64,000 bases of DNA. Origin: Vermamoeba vermiformis. Taxonomy: Eukaryota. The stretch is taken from assembly GCA_045837725.1 (NCBI GenBank), contig JBEWZL010000048.1, positions 124,001 to 188,000 on the forward strand, read 5' to 3'. Shown here piece after piece: positions 31,306 to 61,740 of the stretch. The notes beneath the pieces are model-generated. The model saw only the letters and a list, made by a program, of their open reading frames with translations. It was not told where the DNA came from and searched no databases. The position numbers and the translations under genes are program-made. The first letter of the stretch is position 1; each line of letters opens with the position of its first letter.

Positions 31306-32928
31306 ATGCTCTCCCGAAGTGTAATTCGTACTTGTTTCACTGCTTCCAAGCAACCTGCTCAGGTAAGCTCTAAAGAATGCAACGGCACATCGGCTTGGCT
31401 GTTGAAGTTCTGCTCTATTCTCAAAGAGGGCCGTATTAATAATATCTTACTATTTAATATCAGATCGCACGAAGCTTCTCTTTATTGGCACGTGCAGCCT
31501 CAACCAAGAGAACCACTCAAAACTCAGCAGTAAAATCCCAAAAGAGCACTTTCACTTTGAACTGGACGGCGAAAAAATCACCTACTCAATTATATTTTGG
31601 TTCATTTATTCAAAAGAACAATTATACAACAGCCGGTGGTGAGTTTGAATTTTTAATATTTAATTTTCAAAAATATCTCCTGCTTACGATTTCTTTCGTT
31701 ATTCTTGTGTGATGCATTCATAGGGCTCTTCATCAAATTTTGCAAGATATTTACGGGAGTAGTCAGCAGTAAAATTAATAATTGACCGTTGTGGCCTTAA
31801 TCCAGAATTCCACTTGGCTTTATAATTCTTTCAAACCAATACTCGTAAAAATAACAAACGATTTAATGGTATATTTATTGATGCAATATTCGCGCAGGTG
31901 CTGCCGCTCAAAAGTTGGATGTTGTCGTTGAAGGCGAGACTTACAAACTAATAGTCAAATTGCCCTCATCAACTGAGTCCTCCGTCTTCGTGCTTAAGCC
32001 CATGGAGACTGTTCGCGATCTCATTAATGACATTCGAGAGGAGGACCCTAAGGCCAACACAATTGTTTTCCACTACACCGATGGCCTCAGGTACGACACA
32101 TTTCTGGCCGTTTGCGTATCAAATGTATAATAACCAATGCTATAACTAGAGTCTCACACTCGACTACTATCGACGACTTGCTTAAATCAGAGTTCCATTT
32201 GACTATTGAAGGCACCAAGTACCACGTAGTTCCTCCCAAGGAAAAGAGTACGTACAACTGAGACTCACCACGCACGTGCGTCCACAGGCAAATTTACGGT
32301 GCAACTTTATTGCCGTAAAATTGTTCAAAGGGCGCTATATTCCTTCACCTTCATACGATGGAGAACAACAAGCTGACTATTTTGTTCTAGTCCTTGACAG
32401 CATCAACGAGAATGTGCTCAGTGTGATGGATTTGCGCAGTCTGATGCACAAGGCTTACTACCACAGAATCTTGCTCCGCTTAGAGTCGGATAAACGACAC
32501 CACATGCCCTACAGGTAAGCATCCTTGCTTTCGAACGAACCAGGCCTTGTTTTTGCGCGGCGACGGGTCAATAACGGCCGTTTAGCTCAGTTGGTTAGAG
32601 CATCGTGCTAATAACGCGAGGGTCCCAGGTTCGATCCCTGGAATGGCCAGTTTTTTTTTACATTTTTTACATTTTTTACATTTGGTTCGGGTGGCAGCGC
32701 TGCAGTACCTTCGATTGATTATTCGCACCAACTAAGCTGTCTGCTTTGACGCTATGTGGCGCAATTTTCAAATTTTGGGCGCTTCATTTCACGGCTGTGA
32801 AGGGATGAGCTCGAGAGCAGTAACTTTACCCATGTTGTTTCTGCTCGTTTGTTTTATTCTGCGCTTGTCTTGCCAAGTGCTTCGAGTTGGTTCCAAAAAC
32901 TCGGACAAGAAAAGCGAAGTGGCGCAGT

Positions 32929-32959
<31 letters not shown>

Positions 32960-33979
32960 CCAGGATCGAAACCTGGCTTCGCTAATCATTTTTTTGATTC
33001 TTGAAAATCAAACAACGAGCAATATGATGGTACTTCCATGACTATGAATTACTCATGATTCAAATTATACCGTTTGAGACTGATTGCTCAATTTAATTTT
33101 TTTGGTCAGGCCTGATCCAGGGGTCAACGTAACCTGATACTGATCCTTTTTTTTAGTGAGTACTTGGAATGGTGCCGTGAGTACGGCTTGAGCGACGAAG
33201 AATCACTCAACTTGGCGCACCACTTGCACGAGGTTGGATTGATCTTGCACTTCGCTGGCAACCCCGAGCTCAAGGACTACATCTTCTTGAACCCTCAATT
33301 GGTCGCCAACAGCATCACCAAGGCCTTGCAATTGCGCTACATCAAGTACGTACCAAGTTCAGTTATAATAAGAGAACGCAACTAACGATTACGCTGCAGG
33401 AAGGGAGATGAACTTAAGATGGCTGAATTGGAAGCAATCAAGCAGGAATTGGCTCCTTTGCACGACCTTAAATGTACGTAATAGCTGAATTGGAAGGTCG
33501 TGTAATAATGGTACTGGCACTAATACTGTATAAATATAGTGACTTACGACGAACAAGCCGATAACTACGGCCGTCGAGTCTTGTTGTGGTCCGGCATCTA
33601 CTTGGCCGCGCAGTTCTCTTTGCTCGCTCGTCTCGTGTGGGTTGAGTTCAACTGGGACATTATGGAACCGATCACTTACTTCGTCACCTTGGGCACAATG
33701 ATCTGGGGTTACACTTTCTTCACCTTCACCAAGACCGACTACAGCTACCCTGCCTTCAAGGACCGCATTGCTCGTCGCAAGTTGCGCGCTATCTACTTGA
33801 AGAACGAGTTCAACTGGAAGAGATGGAACACTCTCTATCAACGCGCCAAGCAGCTCGAAGACGAATTGGCTTTGCCTGTTGCTGAGCGATTCACCACTCA
33901 AGATCCCAACAAGACTCGCTTGCCTAAAGTCCAAGCCTCAGCAATCTTGTCGACTCCTGATGCCGTTCAAACGAACTAA
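31306..33979 (+). CDS. MCU: Mitochondrial calcium uniporter pore subunit
   Basis: Mitochondrial-type presequence MLSRSVIRTCF; two TM helices flanking WDIMEPITY selectivity motif; long intron 32515..33156. Confidence 0.93.
32576..32649 (+). tRNA. tRNA-Ile(AAT), inside MCU intron
   Basis: GGCCGTT..AATGGCC-A acceptor stem, D arm TAGCTCAGTTGGTTAGAGC, anticodon arm TCGTG-CTAATAA-CGCGA, GTTCGATCC T arm, followed by a T-run terminator. Confidence 0.95.
32913..32984 (+). tRNA. Initiator tRNA-Met(CAT), inside MCU intron
   Basis: A1-U72 pair (AGCGAAG/CTTCGCT-A), three G-C pairs in anticodon stem (TTGGG-CCCATAA-CCCAA), GATCGAAA T-loop typical of eukaryotic iMet; T7 follows. Confidence 0.95.
33017..33089 (+). 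ncRNA. Candidate box C/D snoRNA, copy 1
   Basis: Terminal stem GAGCAA/TTGCTC, 3-nt bulge then C box ATGATGG (33024..33030), D' ATGA (33044..33047), C' ATGATT (33055..33060), D box CTGA (33080..33083); 73 nt. Confidence 0.72.
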
Positions 33980-34118: not shown

Positions 34119-35279
34119 TTAGTTCTTGGTAGACTCACGGCCGACGAGGGAGGTGTAGATGTCATCACCCAACATCTTCACACGCATGCTGGTGCCCATC
34201 AACTTGGACCAGTAAACAGCACGCCACATCCAGTAAGCACCGAGACCAGTGACGATGGCCTTTGATTCTGAACCTCGCTCAACAAATCCGTCTTCAGCAC
34301 CGACGTATTCAAAGCCACCAATGTGCTTGTATCTGAAGGGTGTTCGCTCTGTGGGGTCCTCGTAATTGCACTCAGATCTGTTGAATGCTTTGGCCAAGAA
34401 TGCTCCTTGTTGAGCAGCAACTAATGGGCATGGATTAATATTATTATTCATAATACAATAGCGCTGAGAAACATACCAGCAGCGGTCGAGGGCAAGCGAG
34501 TCAATCGAGCGTCGAACGATCTCAACAGACCAGCAAACTCTTCGCGGTCCAAAGTGCCGTCCTTGTTAGTATCAGCTTGCACGAACAATTCTTTCGAGTT
34601 GTTGGCGACTTCAAAGAGAGCTGGGAATTGACGAGCCAAGTTCTTTACCAACGCTTCGTATTCCTCAACATCGACGCGACCGTCACCGTTGACGTCAAGC
34701 TTTTTGAAGATTTCCTAGCACGTGGTGTGAGTACTGATTGCAATTGACAGCGCGAGTACTTACAACAGCCTTGTTGATCAATTTGCCCTGATCAATAGTG
34801 GCACAGTCACCCAATGCCCACACGTCCTTGGCACCATTGACGGCGAGTGAGTTGTCGGTGACGAGGGCGCGAGTGTTGTTCTGGCCCTTCAGCTTGGAGC
34901 GCAGCATGTTGATGAGTGGGTGAGGAGCACCGCCAGTGGACCACACGCACAAACCAAACGGTAACTTCACTGTCTCTTCGGTCTTTGTCTCGCGGTTGAA
35001 TCGCTTCACTGTCACGCTGTCCTTATCGACGGCAACAACGTGCTTCGACTTGACTACATTAACGCCCTTAGAATGGTGGTGCAAAGCCATGTCTGTGGAA
35101 ACAAAAGTCAAGGAAAACCAGATCTGGATCAGATCAAAAAAAATAAATCGAGCAATCAGTCTCAAACGGTATAATTTGAATCATGAGTAATTCATAGTCA
35201 TGGAAGTACCATCATATTGCTCGTTGTTTGATTTTCAAGAATCAAAAAAATGATTAGCGAAGCCAGGTTTCGATCCTGG

Positions 35280-35310
<31 letters not shown>

Positions 35311-36794
35311 ACTGCGCCACTTCGCTTTTCTTGTCCGAGTTTTTGGAACCAACTCGAAGCACTTGGCAAGACAAGCGCGAAAAGTTTGAATAAAGGATAC
35401 ATTCACTAATTGAACGATCGTAGAAGTTGTTGATGTGCTCCTTGGTCGAGACTAAGGTAACATTAGCAGTTTCAGCCAATGAAGGGAATTGTGGTTTGAG
35501 ATCTTGGTCGATGAATTCTGTTCGTGCACTGAGATTAGTAGTCGGCTCTAACATGTCGTCGAAAATGTGCATACCATGCAGGTTATGGGCAATTTCATAG
35601 GCGACAGGACTGCCTCCAACAATGACAAAGTTCAACAGCTTCTTCTTTTCCTATTGTTTAATACTTGCGTGTCAATAACAAATCCTTGGCTGTCATATTC
35701 TCCTCTTATAATCAGCTTACATCGTCAGATACGTTAGGCAGAGTGGCCTTCTCAAAAGCATCAATAACTTTCTTCTTAATGTTCTTCGCGTCTAATCATA
35801 TGATCGTTAATGAGCGTTATGCGGGCAATAATCTCTGAGCACGTACCTTGAAGGTCGCGCAAAAACAAAGTGTTCTTTTCAACGTCTTTCAGTCCTAAGG
35901 TGTTTGGTACGGAACCAACAGCAATGACGAGCTTGTCGTAATTGACAGTGAAGTCCTTGCCCTCAGCAGCTGTATAAATACGTAAATGCTAATGCCGAAT
36001 ATAACGATGCGCGATATTTCGTACTTTTGCATGTAACAGTCTTCTTGTTGATATCAATGTCAGATGCGCTGGCTTCATAGTAGTTCAAAACTTTGTTATT
36101 TCGCTTAGCAAAAGTGCGAATAGGCTCAGTAACGCTAAAATAAAATATAAATCAATATTATAAAATTTACCAAGATATTTTTGCCCTTGAAACCGGATTC
36201 GTTCTTTAAGTGATTTAAAAATTAAAACGTACCTTTCAGTAGTTGTGGATCCAACAGTGACATCGGGGAGACCAGGAGTGAATAGGAAATAATTTCTAGG
36301 AGAGACAACGGTCACATCAAACATGTAAGTGTTGATATTTCCAGCCATCGACAAGGCACCCCAGCCAGAGCCTAAAATTACGAGTTTTTGTTTGTTTGAT
36401 CCTGCATCTTTTTGTTTCAAACTGCTCTCTAAGGCCAAGCAAGTGTTAATAGCGGTATGGAAATCCAGATTGAAAAAACTTACCGTGCACATATTCGACT
36501 CCTTTATACACCAAAAAGCTACCACCAAATATCGACACAACTACAGATGCCTTTTCCAGATTGGACCACTTCTTGGCAGTGCGGCTGTTATTGAAAATTA
36601 AAAATTTAATTATTTATTACCTAATTATCTAAATAATGAATGATCAATACGAATGTGTATTGCAATATTATGTAATATTTTGTTGCCAATCAATAATCAT
36701 TTTTGCTGCATGTGAAGTATTACCCTGCGTTGGTGCGAGATTGCAGTCTCGTAGCAGTTCGCGAGCTAAGGAGCAATTTGCTGATTCTAAACAT
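34119..36794 (-). CDS. Type II (alternative) NADH dehydrogenase with EF-hands (NDB-like)
   Basis: Presequence MFRISKLLLSSRTATR, LVILGSGWG, VVSPRNYFLFTP, YDKLVIAVG, FVIVGG, WALGDCAT, EF-hands (ADVNGDGRVDVEEY, ADTNKDGTLDREEF), PFRYKHIG. Confidence 0.9.
35150..35222 (-). ncRNA. Candidate box C/D snoRNA, copy 2
   Basis: Identical to 33017..33089; the stem extends by one more C-G pair here. Confidence 0.72.
35255..35326 (-). tRNA. Initiator tRNA-Met(CAT), inside NADH dehydrogenase U12 intron
   Basis: Identical to 32913..32984. Confidence 0.95.
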
Positions 36795-59021: not shown

Positions 59022-61740
59022 CATGTTGCACCATAAGGATTTATATGCTTACAAAAGACCAAAAGGTACGCCACGCGGCCAATTAAATATGCCAGATCTG
59101 ATTCTATTTTATTCAATTATTCTTCTTATATTCGATTACAAATGATAATTAAAGTATTATTAATCACTATGATGTTATTAGGTGTGCATAAAGTTTTCGG
59201 CTTGGATTTGGAAATTCTTTGCAAAGCAGAACGACGCCACTGCCCAAAACTTATTATATGTATCATAGATTATCTAGAGCAAAAGTGTAAGTCGAAAATC
59301 GGAATTATTTGTTTAATTGAAATTGAATTGGATCGTTCAACAAAATCCGAACGAAATAACGAATTTCGTGTTTAAATAAGAGTTTAGCAATAAGAATCGG
59401 CACAACTTCGCATAATTAATTGTCCGTTATGCTCTCGTACACTTATCGAGCGAGGTTAATATCAATTTCAGCGAGATTTAATATAAATTTGTTGAAGGTC
59501 TCGATGAGGAACGCCTCTTGGCTCAACCTGGAAATGTGGCCCAACTAAAGGATGCCGTGGCCAAAATTAACAACGGTAAGTTGTCTGGAGGCAATAGGGG
59601 CGATATGTCGTTTCGTTAAATTAACGCACGGAATTTCGGAATCTAACGAACGAACGGGCAATGACCCACTCCTCTATCCAAATCTAACGAATTATAATAA
59701 AGGCAATCGTATCAAGTTTGAAGATTTAGGAGCGTACACAACGGGAGATCTGTTGAAGAGATTCTTGTCCGAACTGCCCGTGCCTCTCATCCCGAAAGAA
59801 ACATTCAAGCGCTTGACTGAAATCAAATCTGACGATCCAAAGCGCGAAGAAGAAACTATTGCAGTACTGCAGACATTGACTCATATTCAAGCTGCGACGT
59901 TGGAAGTCGTGTTGCAGATGTGCAAGTAAGCCTCCGAACTAAACAATGTGTCTCTAATTCTAACGTGACTTTGTAGACGAGTGACAATGCGCAGTGGCAC
60001 CAACAAGATGGACTGCAACAAATTGGGGCTAGTCATGGTTCCAGCACTGATGCCCTATGTCACTGACGTTGAAGCACAATCACTGACGCAGAGTCGTGAT
60101 GCAGTGCTCAAGGGCAATGAACTGTTCGAATATCTCGTGCCTGAAGTGGAGAGTCTGTTCAAGTGGGTACGTAGATTTATCGTCGGTCGTCATTGGCTGT
60201 CGTACTTACATGTATGTCAGAACACTCACCACCAGAAGCGATTGAGCACCAAGATCAACAAATTGAAGCACTTCAATAGACTCGCCGCTGCCCCTAATAC
60301 GCCCAAGCGAGGAGTGCGCATCTTGGCGCTGGACGGTGGAGGCATGCGTGGTCTGTCAGAACTCACCATTCTCTCGCACATTGCAAAGAAGTTGTACGGC
60401 GATAATGGACCTGAAAGCACTAAGGTAACGCATTTTACCTTGAAGAATTGACTCCGTGGATCCGAGACGGTGATCTGGTGCAGTATTGTTCGTACGGCAA
60501 GTAGTGACCCGAACACGCAGTTGAAAAGCGTCTCGGGCACGACCACACTAACAAGAATGCACCGCTTCCCGTCCGATCAGCGAAGTTAAGCTTGTTCAGG
60601 CCTTCTTAGTACTGGGGTAGGAGACTACCTGGGAATCGGAGGTGTTGTGCTCTTCTCTTTTTTGCTTTTGCTCCTCTTACCTGCAGTCTGTGCTGACTCG
60701 CTCTCTTTTTAGAAACTTGTCGCTTCATTCGACTTGATTTGCGGCACTTCTACCGGCAGTATCGTGGCCATGTCGCTGTTGAAGAACTCATTGAAGGACT
60801 GCGAAGACTTGTACTATAACTTGGGCTCACAAATCTTCTACAACTCGTATTTATACGCCACAGGTCGCTGGTGGCGATACTACCGCAGCGGCGATTACTA
60901 TGACGGCGAATCACTCTACAAGCTGTTCAGTGAAAACTTTGGCTCCGACATGATTGGCGAAATGTTCGACGCCAATGCCCCTCAAAAGGTAGCTAGTTCA
61001 TTGTGTAAACAATCATCGCACTTTAACTGACTTTATTTGCAGCTGTTTGTCACCGCGACAGATGCTACCAGTGACGTGTTCGATCCAGTGTTGTTCCGCT
61101 CTTACGAGAACAAGAACAGTCACGTGACTGGACACTCTAAAATCTCCGCACCACAAGCACTTCGCGCTAGTTGTGCAGCCCCTACTTACTTCTCTCCGTT
61201 GGTACTCGACGAACACAATTACATGGACGGTGGATTCATCTACAACAATCCCACTGAACTCGCCATCTTTGAGGCTCATGCTTTGTGGCCCGATCGTCCT
61301 ATTGAGTGGTAAGTCTATAATCAGTGGTATTCATATTCATAAGGCTAACAACATGTAGTATTGTTTCGGTTGGTACTGGCTTGCCTAAACCCAACCCTGG
61401 CTCCGAGAACGTGCTGTCACTGCTTGGCGAGATCATCGATATCTGTACCAACAGCGATGCTATTCACAAGCGAGTCTTGGCGTGGTTGGACTTCTTGCAG
61501 ATCAAGCCCAGTTATTTCCGCTTCGATGCCAATCCACCCATTGGCTCTCTCAGACTTGACACGGGTGACAAGCCAACACTCGAACAAATGTGCGCACAGA
61601 CCGAGGCCTATATGAACGAAGCTAAACAGACCTCTGAAGTTGAACGTCTGATGCAGATCTTGTCTGGTCAGCGAACTGGCTTCCTCACTGAGAACACTGT
61701 AAATAATACGAACAACACGAATGTGAATAATGCCAACTAA
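59022..61740 (+). CDS. RhoGAP-like domain + patatin-like phospholipase
   Basis: VFGLDL..CPKLIICIIDYLE, LLKRFLSELPVPLIP, NKMDCNKLGLV; patatin motifs LALDGGGMRG, GTSTG, ALRASCAAPTYF, DGG. Confidence 0.85.
60535..60653 (+). rRNA. 5S rRNA gene inside intron 60425..60712
   Basis: 119 nt; helix I GGGCACGAC/GTTGTGCTC, conserved CCCGTCCGATC..GAAGTTAAGC, TTAGTACT..GGAGAC..CCTGGGAA motifs; T-run terminator immediately downstream. Confidence 0.93.

What the first reader, a model, noticed from the sequence alone, without database searches (positions are those of the whole stretch)
32861..33089. Intron-hosted initiator-tRNA + box C/D snoRNA cassette
Seen: an intact tRNA-iMet is followed 32 nt later by a 73-nt element with correct kink-turn geometry (GAGCAA stem, 3-nt bulge, C box ATGATGG ... 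CTGA, TTGCTC). It also has an internal D'/C' pair (ATGA/ATGATT, with an A-U pair replacing the usual C-G). Identity between the two copies ends exactly at the snoRNA 3' stem. Established: dicistronic tRNA-snoRNA genes cleaved by RNase Z are known from plants. Inference: this may be a protist tRNA-snoRNA unit. A T7 run between tRNA and snoRNA, plus another T-run after the snoRNA, leaves open Pol III readthrough versus release from the host Pol II intron. I could not assign an rRNA target, so the guide (TACTTCCATGACT / AATTATACCGTTTGAGA) may be orphan.
Basis: partly seen in the sequence, partly recalled or inferred. Interest (0 to 1): 0.85.

Follow-up and report, generated by a model that had tools for sequence, protein, structure and literature searches.

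The report
Initiator tRNA plus snoRNA intron cassette
A small guide-RNA gene of the type that marks ribosomal RNA sits just behind an initiator tRNA gene inside introns of two neighbouring genes of a poorly sampled protist, and a related species keeps the same pair, so it is real but a variation on known arrangements.

Summary
An intact eukaryotic initiator tRNA-Met (32913-32984) is followed 32 nt later by a 73-nt element (33017-33089). That element has a 6-bp terminal stem, a C box AUGAUGG, a D box CUGA with correct kink-turn register, and internal D'/C' boxes. A second copy, identical over its core, lies inverted at 35150-35326. Spliced RNA contigs show that copy 1 lies in a 642-nt intron of an MCU-like gene. 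Copy 2 lies, by inference, in a 308-nt intron of the convergent NDH2-like gene. Both copies are sense to their host.

Three metagenome contigs from a related species carry the same tRNA+snoRNA pair, one of them clearly at the syntenic MCU intron. Stems, boxes and the D' guide are unchanged, while spacers, linker and the box-proximal D guide have diverged. The D' guide pairs 12 bp with a conserved LSU rRNA hairpin, but only in the U variant of that site. The D guide stays orphan.

T6-T9 runs follow the tRNA in every copy, so plant-type Pol III dicistronic expression is not favoured. Release from the host intron is my preferred route, and it is not shown. There is no direct RNA evidence for the mature snoRNA. 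Verdict: a real, new box C/D snoRNA next to tRNA-iMet, of moderate interest.

The parts
32515..33156 (+). 642-nt GT..AG intron of the MCU-like host gene. It holds tRNA-Ile, tRNA-iMet and snoRNA copy 1.
   Evidence: Spliced contigs of runs X1 and X3 join 32512/33155, and the join fits equally with the cut 2 nt to the right. The downstream exon 33542-33976 hits Pfam MCU at E 8e-30.
32576..32649 (+). tRNA-Ile(AAU) gene in the same intron, followed by T9 (32651-32659)
   Evidence: ARAGORN; Rfam 65.4 bits; flank read
32862..32912 (+). 5' leader shared 100% by the two window copies. It is partly alignable with L060 and L062 (30 of 52 identical) but not with L059 (15 of 52).
32913..32984 (+). Initiator tRNA-Met gene, copy 1
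   Evidence: initiator marks read
32989..32995 (+). T7 run 5 nt behind the tRNA; most likely the tRNA's Pol III terminator
   Evidence: Sequence. Other Pol III genes here end in T6-T9.
33017..33089 (+). Box C/D snoRNA candidate, copy 1. Stem 33017-22 / 33084-89; C box 33024-30; D' guide 33031-43; D' 33044-47; C' 33055-61; D guide 33062-79; D box 33080-83.
   Evidence: conserved in L059, L060 and L062
33097..33103 (+). T7 run 7 nt behind the snoRNA stem. A T run at this place is kept in all 5 copies seen (T7, T8, T9, T9, T9).
35093..35400 (-). Inferred 308-nt GT..AG intron of the NDH2-like gene, holding copy 2
   Evidence: Open frames on both sides and GT/AG read. Exon 34782-35093 hits Pyr_redox_2 profile positions 192-277 at E 3e-10. 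The upstream exon carries a weak, below-cutoff dinucleotide-binding match. No RNA was laid on this stretch.
35255..35326 (-). Initiator tRNA-Met gene, copy 2
35150..35222 (-). Box C/D snoRNA candidate, copy 2. It is identical to copy 1, and its terminal stem is 7 bp because the base after the stem is G.

Best explanation
The element is a genuine box C/D snoRNA gene. It lies 32 nt behind a normal initiator tRNA gene, and both sit in sense orientation inside an intron of an MCU-like gene. The 228-nt unit is duplicated, inverted, into an intron of the convergent NDH2-like neighbour.

The tRNA is an ordinary Pol III gene that ends at its own T7. This is inferred.

The snoRNA is most likely made from the host's Pol II transcript. 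After splicing and debranching, exonucleases trim the intron back to the snoRNP that assembles on the kink-turn formed by the C and D boxes and the terminal stem. This is inferred.

Its D' guide most likely directs 2'-O-methylation of the A in GGUCA*UGGAAGU. That sequence is a hairpin in the 5' half of LSU rRNA, which I recall as helix 43 of the GTPase-associated centre. This is predicted and depends on the host carrying the U variant.

The D guide has no assignable target.
For: **Anatomy.** Stem, 3-nt bulge, tandem G.A register, C and D boxes, and D'/C' boxes are all present. In the D'/C' pair the usual C-G is replaced on both sides by A-U. Only these two elements in 128 kb of strand pass my scan, against 0.07 expected per shuffled window.

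**Conservation.** 3 of the 4 hits of one metagenome pattern scan are the same tRNA-iMet + snoRNA pair.
- L060 is syntenic: same upstream gene, same MCU gene, same convergent NDH2 gene.
- Against L060, both stems (12 of 12), the C' box (7 of 7) and the D box (4 of 4) are identical. None of these was demanded by my search pattern.
- Over the same comparison the tRNA-snoRNA spacer is 17 of 32 identical plus 3 gap columns, the D'-C' linker 5 of 7 plus 4 gap columns, and the box-proximal half of the D guide 3 of 8.

**Intron route.**
- The copy 1 intron is shown by spliced contigs.
- Both window copies are sense to their hosts.
- The snoRNA ends 67, 57, 56 and 63 nt before the 3' splice site in copy 1, copy 2, L060 and L059 (the last three splice sites are inferred).
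- Every copy has a T6-T9 run right behind the tRNA, like the runs behind tRNA-Ile, 5S and tRNA-Ala.

**Target.**
- The D' guide pairs 12 bp (11 Watson-Crick + 1 G.U, -18.5 kcal/mol) with LSU position 1297-1308 of L006. This is the best site along that sequence.
- 9 of 1000 shuffled guides did as well against SSU + 5.8S + the 5' part of the LSU.
- In L006 the C-to-U change at this site is matched by a G-to-A change 12 nt on. I read these two as a base pair of the hairpin, so the U form looks like a natural variant.
Against: - **No mature RNA seen.** The two raw RNA-seq runs laid (28 and 36 reads in all) gave a depth of at most about 0.6 over the cassette, roughly one read running from the tRNA into the snoRNA. 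The two contig runs had nothing in the intron.
- **No Rfam family.** The best match is TtnuCD19 at 23.2 bits against a gathering score of 70.
- **Target depends on an unknown.** 5 of the 6 LSU sequences fetched have GGCC, which puts an A x C mismatch at position 3 and drops the duplex to -13.6 kcal/mol. By my contiguous-pairing criterion that site then fails: the best contiguous match anywhere in that set scores 6.0 and lies in the SSU, and 997 of 1000 shuffled guides reach it. The host's own rRNA could not be obtained.
- **No known methylation at the site.** By my approximate mapping it is not one of the 32 LSU Nm sites listed for Dictyostelium discoideum. I also recall none there in yeast or human.
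- **Ascertainment.** The C box core, most of the D' guide and the UGA of D' were demanded by the pattern that found the relatives. Their conservation is therefore partly by construction.
- **Relatives are close.** A Sla2-like protein is 87-93% identical to metagenome proteins, and they may be one or two species only.
- **Signs pointing to Pol III or tRNA-aided expression.** A T7-T9 run follows the snoRNA in 5 of 5 copies, and the tRNA-snoRNA spacing is almost constant (32 and 29 nt).
Confidence: 0.5

Rival explanations
1. The tRNA helps to make the snoRNA. There are two possible routes. Either Pol III starts at the tRNA promoter, reads through the T7 in a fraction of rounds and stops at the T run behind the snoRNA. 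Or the tRNA fold inside the Pol II intron transcript is cut by RNase P and RNase Z. In both routes RNase Z creates the entry point 32 nt before the snoRNA, and exonucleases then trim to the snoRNP.
For: - The tRNA and snoRNA are linked on the same strand, 32 nt apart in both window copies and 29 nt apart in 3 of 3 related contigs.
- The duplicated unit contains exactly both genes.
- A T7-T9 run sits 6-8 nt behind the snoRNA stem in 5 of 5 copies.
- Roughly one RNA-seq read in X21 runs from the tRNA across the T7 into the snoRNA.
- Precedents are plant tRNA-snoRNA genes and C. elegans UM2 loci, some of them intronic (passages read in PMC2566860 and PMC2527325).
Against: - In known Pol III tandems the terminator lies only behind the second gene (passage in PMC2566860). 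Here T7, or T6 plus T9, lies between the genes in all 5 copies. T6-T9 is also what ends the other Pol III genes seen.
- The single spanning read fits an unspliced pre-mRNA equally well. The library looks unstranded, because the MCU exons are covered in both directions.
- Linkage in the relatives may be plain synteny.
Confidence: 0.3
2. The element is not a working snoRNA. Its box-like motifs are a chance or decayed feature of the tRNA's 3' flank. They look conserved only because the copies are young, are homogenised by gene conversion, and were found with a pattern that demanded the motifs.
For: - There is no Rfam family match and no RNA evidence.
- The two window copies are also identical in the leader and spacer, which points to conversion or recency rather than selection.
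- The D guide is not conserved and has no target.
- The search pattern pre-selected part of the conservation.
Against: - Between species, the 23 positions not demanded by the pattern (both stems, C' box, D box) are 23 of 23 identical. The adjacent spacer is 17 of 32 identical, and the linker and distal D guide are rearranged.
- The bulge base differs (U against A) while the kink-turn register is kept.
- The D'/C' pair carries a two-sided change that keeps pairing.
- The expected number of chance hits is 0.07 per window.
Confidence: 0.1
3. The snoRNA is an independent gene with its own promoter in the 32-nt spacer or in the tRNA region. It is expressed regardless of the host intron and of the tRNA.
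For: - Most Dictyostelium box C/D snoRNAs are intergenic, independently transcribed genes: all but one of 47 (PMC8817022, sections 19 and 28 read).
- A T run follows the snoRNA.
Against: - The spacer is only 29-32 nt and is poorly conserved, 17 of 32 identical.
- I saw no TATA-like or other shared motif in it.
- Both copies sit in sense orientation inside introns.
Confidence: 0.08

Closest known systems
Plant dicistronic tRNA-snoRNA genes: Arabidopsis tRNA-Gly(GCC)-snoR43, 12 copies; rice tRNA-eMet-snoRNA (Kruszka et al. 2003). The paper itself is not held. I saw only how it is described in passages of PMC2566860 and PMC2527325.
   Same: A box C/D snoRNA lies directly 3' of an intact tRNA gene on the same strand. 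There are several paralogous copies, and a T run follows the snoRNA.
   Different: - Here a T6-T9 run lies between the tRNA and the snoRNA.
- The tRNA is the initiator, not Gly or elongator Met.
- The unit lies inside Pol II introns.
- The organism is not a plant. Its nearest named homologue is amoebozoan at 35% identity.
tRNA-like leader promoters of Pol III snoRNAs: C. elegans UM2 loci and yeast snR52 (PMC2527325, passages read)
   Same: An A/B-box-bearing element upstream of a snoRNA. Some loci are intronic (CeN55), and transcripts end at T runs.
   Different: In those cases the leader is a degenerate tRNA-like remnant that is discarded. Here the upstream partner is a complete, presumably functional tRNA-iMet with its own terminator.
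Intron-encoded box C/D snoRNAs of animals, fungi and algae, for example 72 of 131 snoRNAs in Ostreococcus tauri (PMC7671301, passage read)
   Same: One snoRNA per intron, sense to the host, with a terminal stem plus C/D kink-turn. It lies some tens of nt upstream of the 3' splice site (56-67 nt here).
   Different: The intron also carries one or two Pol III tRNA genes. The host genes are mitochondrial (MCU-like, NDH2-like) rather than translation-related.
Dictyostelium discoideum CD RNAs (PMC8817022; abstract, Table 1 passages and sections 19 and 28 read)
   Same: Short box C/D snoRNAs of an amoebozoan, often with G.U pairs in the guide duplex and many lineage-specific target sites.
   Different: All but one (CD38) are intergenic, and no tRNA linkage is reported in the text I read. 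By my approximate mapping, none of the 32 listed LSU sites coincides with the site predicted here.
Nanoarchaeum equitans tRNA-C/D sRNA dicistrons (PMC3491384; search listing and start of the abstract only)
   Same: A tRNA followed by a C/D guide RNA.
   Different: Those are archaeal, are co-transcribed without an intervening terminator, and have no intron context.

Membership tests
Box C/D snoRNA | C box (RUGAUGA) near the 5' end and D box (CUGA) near the 3' end | tested here: met
   AUGAUGG at 33024-33030 (last base G instead of A) and CUGA at 33080-33083. Both are unchanged in L059, L060 and L062. The C box core was part of the search pattern.
Box C/D snoRNA | Terminal stem flanking the C and D boxes, with kink-turn register (3-nt bulge, tandem G.A) | tested here: met
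   GAGCAA / TTGCTC, 6 bp (7 bp in copy 2). The bulge is UAU in the window and AAU in the relatives. The register is G.A, A.G, U.U, G-C. The stem is 12 of 12 identical in the relatives and was not in the pattern.
Box C/D snoRNA | Internal D' and C' boxes | tested here: met
   AUGA at 33044-47 and AUGAUUC at 33055-61. The usual C-G is replaced by A-U on both sides. The C' box is 7 of 7 conserved in the relatives while the linker between the boxes changes length from 7 to 11 nt.
Box C/D snoRNA | Guide of 9-10 nt or more, complementary to rRNA or snRNA, with the target at the 5th nt from D or D' | tested here: inconclusive
   **D' guide:** 12 bp with the LSU of L006 (1 of 6 LSU sequences; 9 of 1000 shuffled guides as good). 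There is one mismatch at position 3 in the other 5.

**D guide:** the best site is in the SSU near position 1040 of L049, reached by 116 of 1000 shuffles. Nothing was found in the 3' third of the LSU.

The host rRNA was not available.
Box C/D snoRNA | Match to a curated family | tested here: not met
   No Rfam family reaches its gathering score. In E-value mode 6 C/D families score 14.9-23.2 bits against thresholds of 47-70. This does not exclude a new family.
Box C/D snoRNA | Stable RNA of about 60-100 nt bound by fibrillarin, Nop56/58 and Snu13 | not testable with these tools
   Only poly(A)-type or unknown RNA-seq runs were served, and depth over the element was at most about 0.6.
Dicistronic Pol III tRNA-snoRNA gene (plant type) | snoRNA directly 3' of a tRNA gene, on the same strand, with a short spacer | tested here: met
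   32 nt in both window copies and 29 nt in 3 of 3 related contigs.
Dicistronic Pol III tRNA-snoRNA gene (plant type) | No Pol III terminator between the two genes; terminator only behind the second | tested here: not met
   T7 lies at 32989-32995, and T6 plus T9 in the relatives. Other Pol III genes in this lineage end at T6-T9. A T7-T9 run behind the snoRNA is present.
Dicistronic Pol III tRNA-snoRNA gene (plant type) | Dicistronic precursor cleaved by RNase Z | tested here: inconclusive
   Roughly one read in X21 spans the tRNA, the T7 and the 5' half of the snoRNA. It cannot be told apart from unspliced pre-mRNA. Cleavage is not testable here.
Intron-encoded snoRNA | Lies in an intron, sense to the host gene | tested here: met
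   Copy 1: spliced contigs in 2 of the 2 contig runs laid. Copy 2: inferred from open frames, GT..AG and Pfam coordinates. In L060 it lies in the orthologous MCU intron.
Intron-encoded snoRNA | Position some tens of nt upstream of the 3' splice site or branch point. The optimum distance is recalled from work on vertebrates. | tested here: met
   67, 57, 56 and 63 nt from the snoRNA 3' end to the 3' splice site in copy 1, copy 2, L060 and L059. The last three splice sites are inferred.
Eukaryotic initiator tRNA-Met | A1:U72, G29-31:C39-41, A54, A60, anticodon CAU (the list of features is recalled) | tested here: met
   All are read directly in the 72-nt sequence. The tRNA is 72 of 72 identical in the three related contigs.

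The most novel reading that the evidence does not exclude
The tRNA-iMet and the snoRNA form one portable expression module. The tRNA fold, embedded in a Pol II intron (or read through by Pol III), serves as an RNase P / RNase Z handle that frees the snoRNA independently of splicing. The 228-nt module has spread into the intron of the neighbouring gene and is kept identical by gene conversion. It would be a non-plant counterpart of dicistronic tRNA-snoRNA genes. Its predicted target is an adenosine in the GTPase-associated-centre hairpin of LSU rRNA, a site not known to be methylated in the model organisms.
Probability: 0.2. Interest if true: 0.65.

Novelty: new member of a known kind. Interest (0 to 1): 0.4.

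Why it matters
If confirmed, this adds a new box C/D snoRNA family with no Rfam match. It also adds a predicted, lineage-specific 2'-O-methylation in a functionally central rRNA hairpin, in a branch of eukaryotes where snoRNAs are almost unstudied.

The pairing of an intact initiator tRNA with a snoRNA is conserved between paralogues and between species, and it is nested in Pol II introns. That makes it a natural test case for three questions:
- whether Pol III genes and intronic snoRNAs can share processing;
- how tRNA-snoRNA units arise outside plants;
- how small RNA modules spread between introns.

The practical value is modest. It is a clean, testable locus rather than a new principle.

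Tried and rejected
- **Whole genome:** none is held. Other tRNA-iMet copies and the host rDNA could therefore not be surveyed.
- **Sequencing runs:** The look-up of sequencing runs listed no RNA holder on record.
- **Rfam:** no snoRNA family matched.
- **ITS3 primer scan of viral contigs:** 0 hits.
- **The genome search with the eukaryotic LSU family on handles:** failed twice. It was replaced by a short-motif search that yielded the 3' third of the LSU.
- **D guide, window and relative versions:** no convincing target in SSU, 5.8S, the LSU 5' part, the LSU 3' part, the window's 5S, tRNA-iMet or tRNA-Ile.
  - The SSU match near position 1040 of L049 is no better than a chance hit in a bacterial contig (L016).
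  - My idea that the two D guides co-evolve with a variable SSU helix could not be tested.
- **Dictyostelium site Am1463:** I considered whether the D' site equals it (PMC8817022, Table 1). By anchor spacing the predicted site falls about 5-20 nt further 3', so I rejected this. The mapping rests partly on recalled yeast coordinates.
- **Arabidopsis Nm lists:** not in the main text of PMC8053127 or PMC8351944. Supplements are closed and may hold a site at this position.
- **Kruszka 2003:** not held.
- **Hairpin in the tRNA leader:** two apparently compensatory pairs by eye, but not supported by consensus folding at -1.6 kcal/mol.
- **Covariation in the snoRNA:** none is possible, because the stems are identical.
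- **Earlier findings of this scan:** nothing on this genome, and no look-alike in other windows. The word search returned only archaeal tRNA-trailer cases.
- **Protein Atlas:** gave the family (MCU) but no useful taxon.
- **Literature on a tRNA-snoRNA unit outside plants, worms and yeast:** nothing surfaced in the listings of searches. Two searches do not establish that it is absent from print.
Full report
**What is there**

ARAGORN and Rfam find three tRNA genes in the window: tRNA-Ile(AAU) at 32576-32649, and two identical tRNA-Met(CAU) genes at 32913-32984 (+) and 35255-35326 (-). The tRNA-Met has A1:U72, three G:C pairs at the bottom of the anticodon stem, A54 and A60. These are read from the sequence. 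That they define a eukaryotic initiator is recalled knowledge.

- stem GAGCAA (33017-22)
- bulge UAU
- C box AUGAUGG (33024-30)
- a 13-nt D' guide
- D' AUGA (33044-47)
- a 7-nt linker
- C' AUGAUUC (33055-61)
- an 18-nt D guide
- D box CUGA (33080-83)
- stem TTGCTC (33084-89)

The register gives G.A, A.G, U.U and G-C between the C and D boxes, which is a proper kink-turn. In the internal pair the usual C-G is A-U on both sides. A T7 run lies between tRNA and element (32989-95), and another lies 7 nt behind it (33097-103).

**Is it more than chance?**

A scan of my own looked for RTGATGN, then CTGA 40-130 nt on, with a flanking Watson-Crick stem. It returns only these two copies in both strands of the window. 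200 Markov-shuffled windows gave 0.34 hits for a stem of 5 bp or more and 0.07 for 6 bp or more. The element folds better than 199 of 200 shuffles. No Rfam family reaches threshold. In E-value mode six C/D families score 15-23 bits, essentially on the boxes.

**The two copies**

The inverted repeat is 247 nt long, 32861-33107 against 35132-35378. The copies are identical from 32862 to 33089, and the first difference is the base after the 3' stem. In copy 2 that base is a G, which lengthens the stem to 7 bp. Behind the stem the copies stay alignable for about 35 nt, but with three substitutions and an indel. The 228-nt core is therefore either very young, under constraint, or homogenised by gene conversion. 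Leader and spacer are identical too, although they differ strongly between species. I therefore favour conversion or recency for the identity itself.

**Context**

Contigs of two public runs (X1, X3) are spliced mRNA of the + strand gene. They skip 642 nt with GT..AG, so the intron is 32515-33156. Four further short introns of 54-145 nt are also skipped. The gene's last exon hits Pfam MCU at E 8e-30 (the Atlas agrees).

Copy 2 lies on the minus strand between two open frames of an NDH2-like gene. One exon hits Pyr_redox_2 at E 3e-10, and EF-hand-like repeats lie downstream. It is bounded by GT at 35400 and AG at 35093. That makes a 308-nt intron of which 247 nt are the repeat. This intron is inferred, because I laid no reads on it. 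The two genes converge, and each copy is sense to its host.

The organism is a eukaryote with short introns. A Sla2-like protein of the window has its nearest named homologues in Dictyostelium purpureum (35% identity) and Filamoeba (31%). I call it amoebozoan-like with reserve.

**Relatives**

I scanned the metagenome contigs once, with a pattern made of the C box core, the D' guide (two positions degenerate) and the UGA of D'. There were four hits. One (L061) is unrelated. Three (L059, L060, L062) carry an identical tRNA-iMet followed 29 nt later by the same element.

L060 is syntenic with the window: same upstream gene, same MCU gene with the pair in the same intron, and same convergent NDH2 gene.

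Feature by feature against L060:

| Feature | Identical positions |
|---|---|
| tRNA | 72 of 72 |
| Both stems | 12 of 12 |
| C box | 7 of 7 |
| D' guide | 13 of 13 |
| D' box | 4 of 4 |
| C' box | 7 of 7 |
| D box | 4 of 4 |
| Bulge base | 0 of 1 |
| D'-C' linker | 5 of 7, plus 4 gap columns |
| D guide, 5' half | 9 of 10 |
| D guide, box-proximal half | 3 of 8 |
| tRNA-snoRNA spacer | 17 of 32, plus 3 gap columns |

The C box core, most of the D' guide and part of D' were required by my pattern, so only the stems, C' and D (23 of 23 positions) are unbiased. Even so, this is the pattern expected of a working box C/D RNA. It is not what a neutral tRNA flank would show. The three contigs may stand for only one or two close species.

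**Targets**

No host rRNA was available, so I fished eukaryotic rDNA that contaminates prokaryote assemblies. I scanned SSU, 5.8S and LSU with both guides.

*D' guide.* It pairs with a conserved LSU site that six fetched LSU sequences contain.
- In L006 the site reads GGTCATGGAAGT and gives 12 contiguous pairs (11 Watson-Crick, 1 G.U; -18.5 kcal/mol). This is the best site along that LSU, and 9 of 1000 shuffled guides did as well.
- In the other five it reads GGCC, which puts a mismatch at guide position 3 (-13.6 kcal/mol). By my contiguous criterion that site then fails: the best contiguous match in that set scores 6.0 and lies in the SSU, and 997 of 1000 shuffled guides reach it.
- In L006 the C-to-U change goes with a G-to-A change 12 nt downstream. 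I read this as a compensated base pair of the hairpin.
- The guide's A at position 3 predicts that the host has the U form.

The nucleotide opposite position 5 is the A of C-A-UGG, at LSU position 1220-1228 in five sequences and 1301 in L006. From memory, this hairpin is helix 43 of the GTPase-associated centre, and the A lies two nucleotides 5' of the equivalent of E. coli A1067.

Using Table 1 of PMC8817022 I took two anchors: yeast Am1133 = Dictyostelium Am1370, and yeast Cm1437 = Dictyostelium Cm1673. Together with spacing measured in L026, these place the site near Dictyostelium position 1468-1484. That is not the listed Am1463. The mapping is approximate, and the complete site lists of other species are in supplements I could not open.

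*D guide.* It found nothing convincing, in either the window or the relative version.

**How it is made**

The defining feature of the known Pol III tandems is that the terminator lies only behind the second gene (PMC2566860, passage). That feature is not met here. All five copies have T6-T9 right behind the tRNA, the same as behind tRNA-Ile (T9), 5S rRNA (T6) and tRNA-Ala of L059 (T8).

Both window copies are sense to their host introns. The element ends 56-67 nt before the 3' splice site in four loci. I therefore prefer the ordinary intronic route: splicing, debranching and exonucleolytic trimming to the snoRNP.

Three observations keep a tRNA-aided route alive, and I give it 0.3:
- the near-constant spacing between tRNA and snoRNA;
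- the T run behind the snoRNA in 5 of 5 copies;
- a duplicated unit that contains exactly both genes.

That route could run either by Pol III read-through or by RNase Z cutting the tRNA fold within the intron transcript.

RNA data do not decide. Two raw RNA-seq runs of a related strain gave 28 and 36 reads on the 2.3 kb. Roughly one read runs from the tRNA over the T7 into the element, and the library looks unstranded.

**Comparison and verdict**

The closest known arrangements are:
- the plant tRNA-snoRNA genes;
- the tRNA-like leaders of C. elegans and yeast Pol III snoRNAs (PMC2527325, PMC2566860);
- ordinary intron-encoded C/D snoRNAs (for example PMC7671301).

In Dictyostelium all but one of 47 C/D snoRNAs are intergenic, and no tRNA linkage is mentioned in the sections I read (PMC8817022, sections 19 and 28).

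I file the element as a new box C/D snoRNA, with about 0.85 confidence that it is one, lying beside tRNA-iMet in introns. It is not a shown member of the dicistronic Pol III class. Interest is moderate: the anatomy and conservation are clean and the locus is very testable, but each ingredient is known.

Noticed in passing
L059:531-4953: In one related contig a non-LTR retrotransposon lies head-to-head about 45 nt upstream of a tRNA-Ala(AGC) gene. Its ORF1 is 305 aa and its ORF2 is 1130 aa and looks to me like an endonuclease/reverse-transcriptase protein (not domain-checked). The tRNA-Ala gene is itself about 190 nt upstream of the tRNA-iMet + snoRNA pair, inside the MCU intron. The distance and orientation resemble TRE5-type elements of dictyostelids, which target tRNA genes at about 50 bp upstream (PMC5006619, abstract and passages).
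   Followed up: partly
window 32576-32690; L059; L060: The MCU intron is a variable nest of tRNA genes. The window has tRNA-Ile ahead of tRNA-iMet, L059 has tRNA-Ala plus a retroelement, and L060 has tRNA-iMet only. Behind the window's tRNA-Ile, its T9 is followed by three tandem ACATTTTTT-like units.
   Followed up: partly
window 32862-32912; L060:2524-2577; L062:2852-2907: The 50 nt upstream of tRNA-iMet are partly conserved between the window and two related contigs (30 of 52 identical) but not in L059 (15 of 52). A small hairpin with two apparently compensatory pairs (CGAGTT..AACTCG against CTGGTT..AACCAG) is not supported by consensus folding (-1.6 kcal/mol).
   Followed up: partly
window 33155-33343: The exon of the MCU-like gene just after the intron hits the COR-A domain (C-terminal of Roc, PF16095) at E 8e-12. 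That is an unusual companion for an MCU domain.
   Followed up: no
window 60535-60653: A dispersed 5S rRNA gene (104.7 bits) followed by T6. It is not linked to rDNA or to a tRNA.
   Followed up: no
L060:4740-4787; L062:3090-3103: Two of the three related contigs end at or near cassette edges. L062 ends right after the T run behind the snoRNA. L060 ends 48 nt into the NDH2 intron, where the window has copy 2. This would fit a repeated cassette in that genome too, but it is not shown.
   Followed up: partly
L001-L058, L063-L066 (prokaryote assemblies): At least 58 stretches in bacterial or archaeal species-representative assemblies carry eukaryotic 5.8S/rDNA. L026 is a chimera of yeast-like rDNA fused to high-GC sequence. 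One MAG labelled Deltaproteobacteria holds eukaryotic rDNA, archaeal LSU rRNA and archaeal RNase P RNA. I read these as assembly contamination.
   Followed up: partly
window 33029-33033 and 33067-33071: The end of the C box and start of the D' guide (UGGUA) can pair with UACC(G/A) in the conserved 5' half of the D guide region, in both species. This might explain why that half is conserved although no target was found.
   Followed up: no
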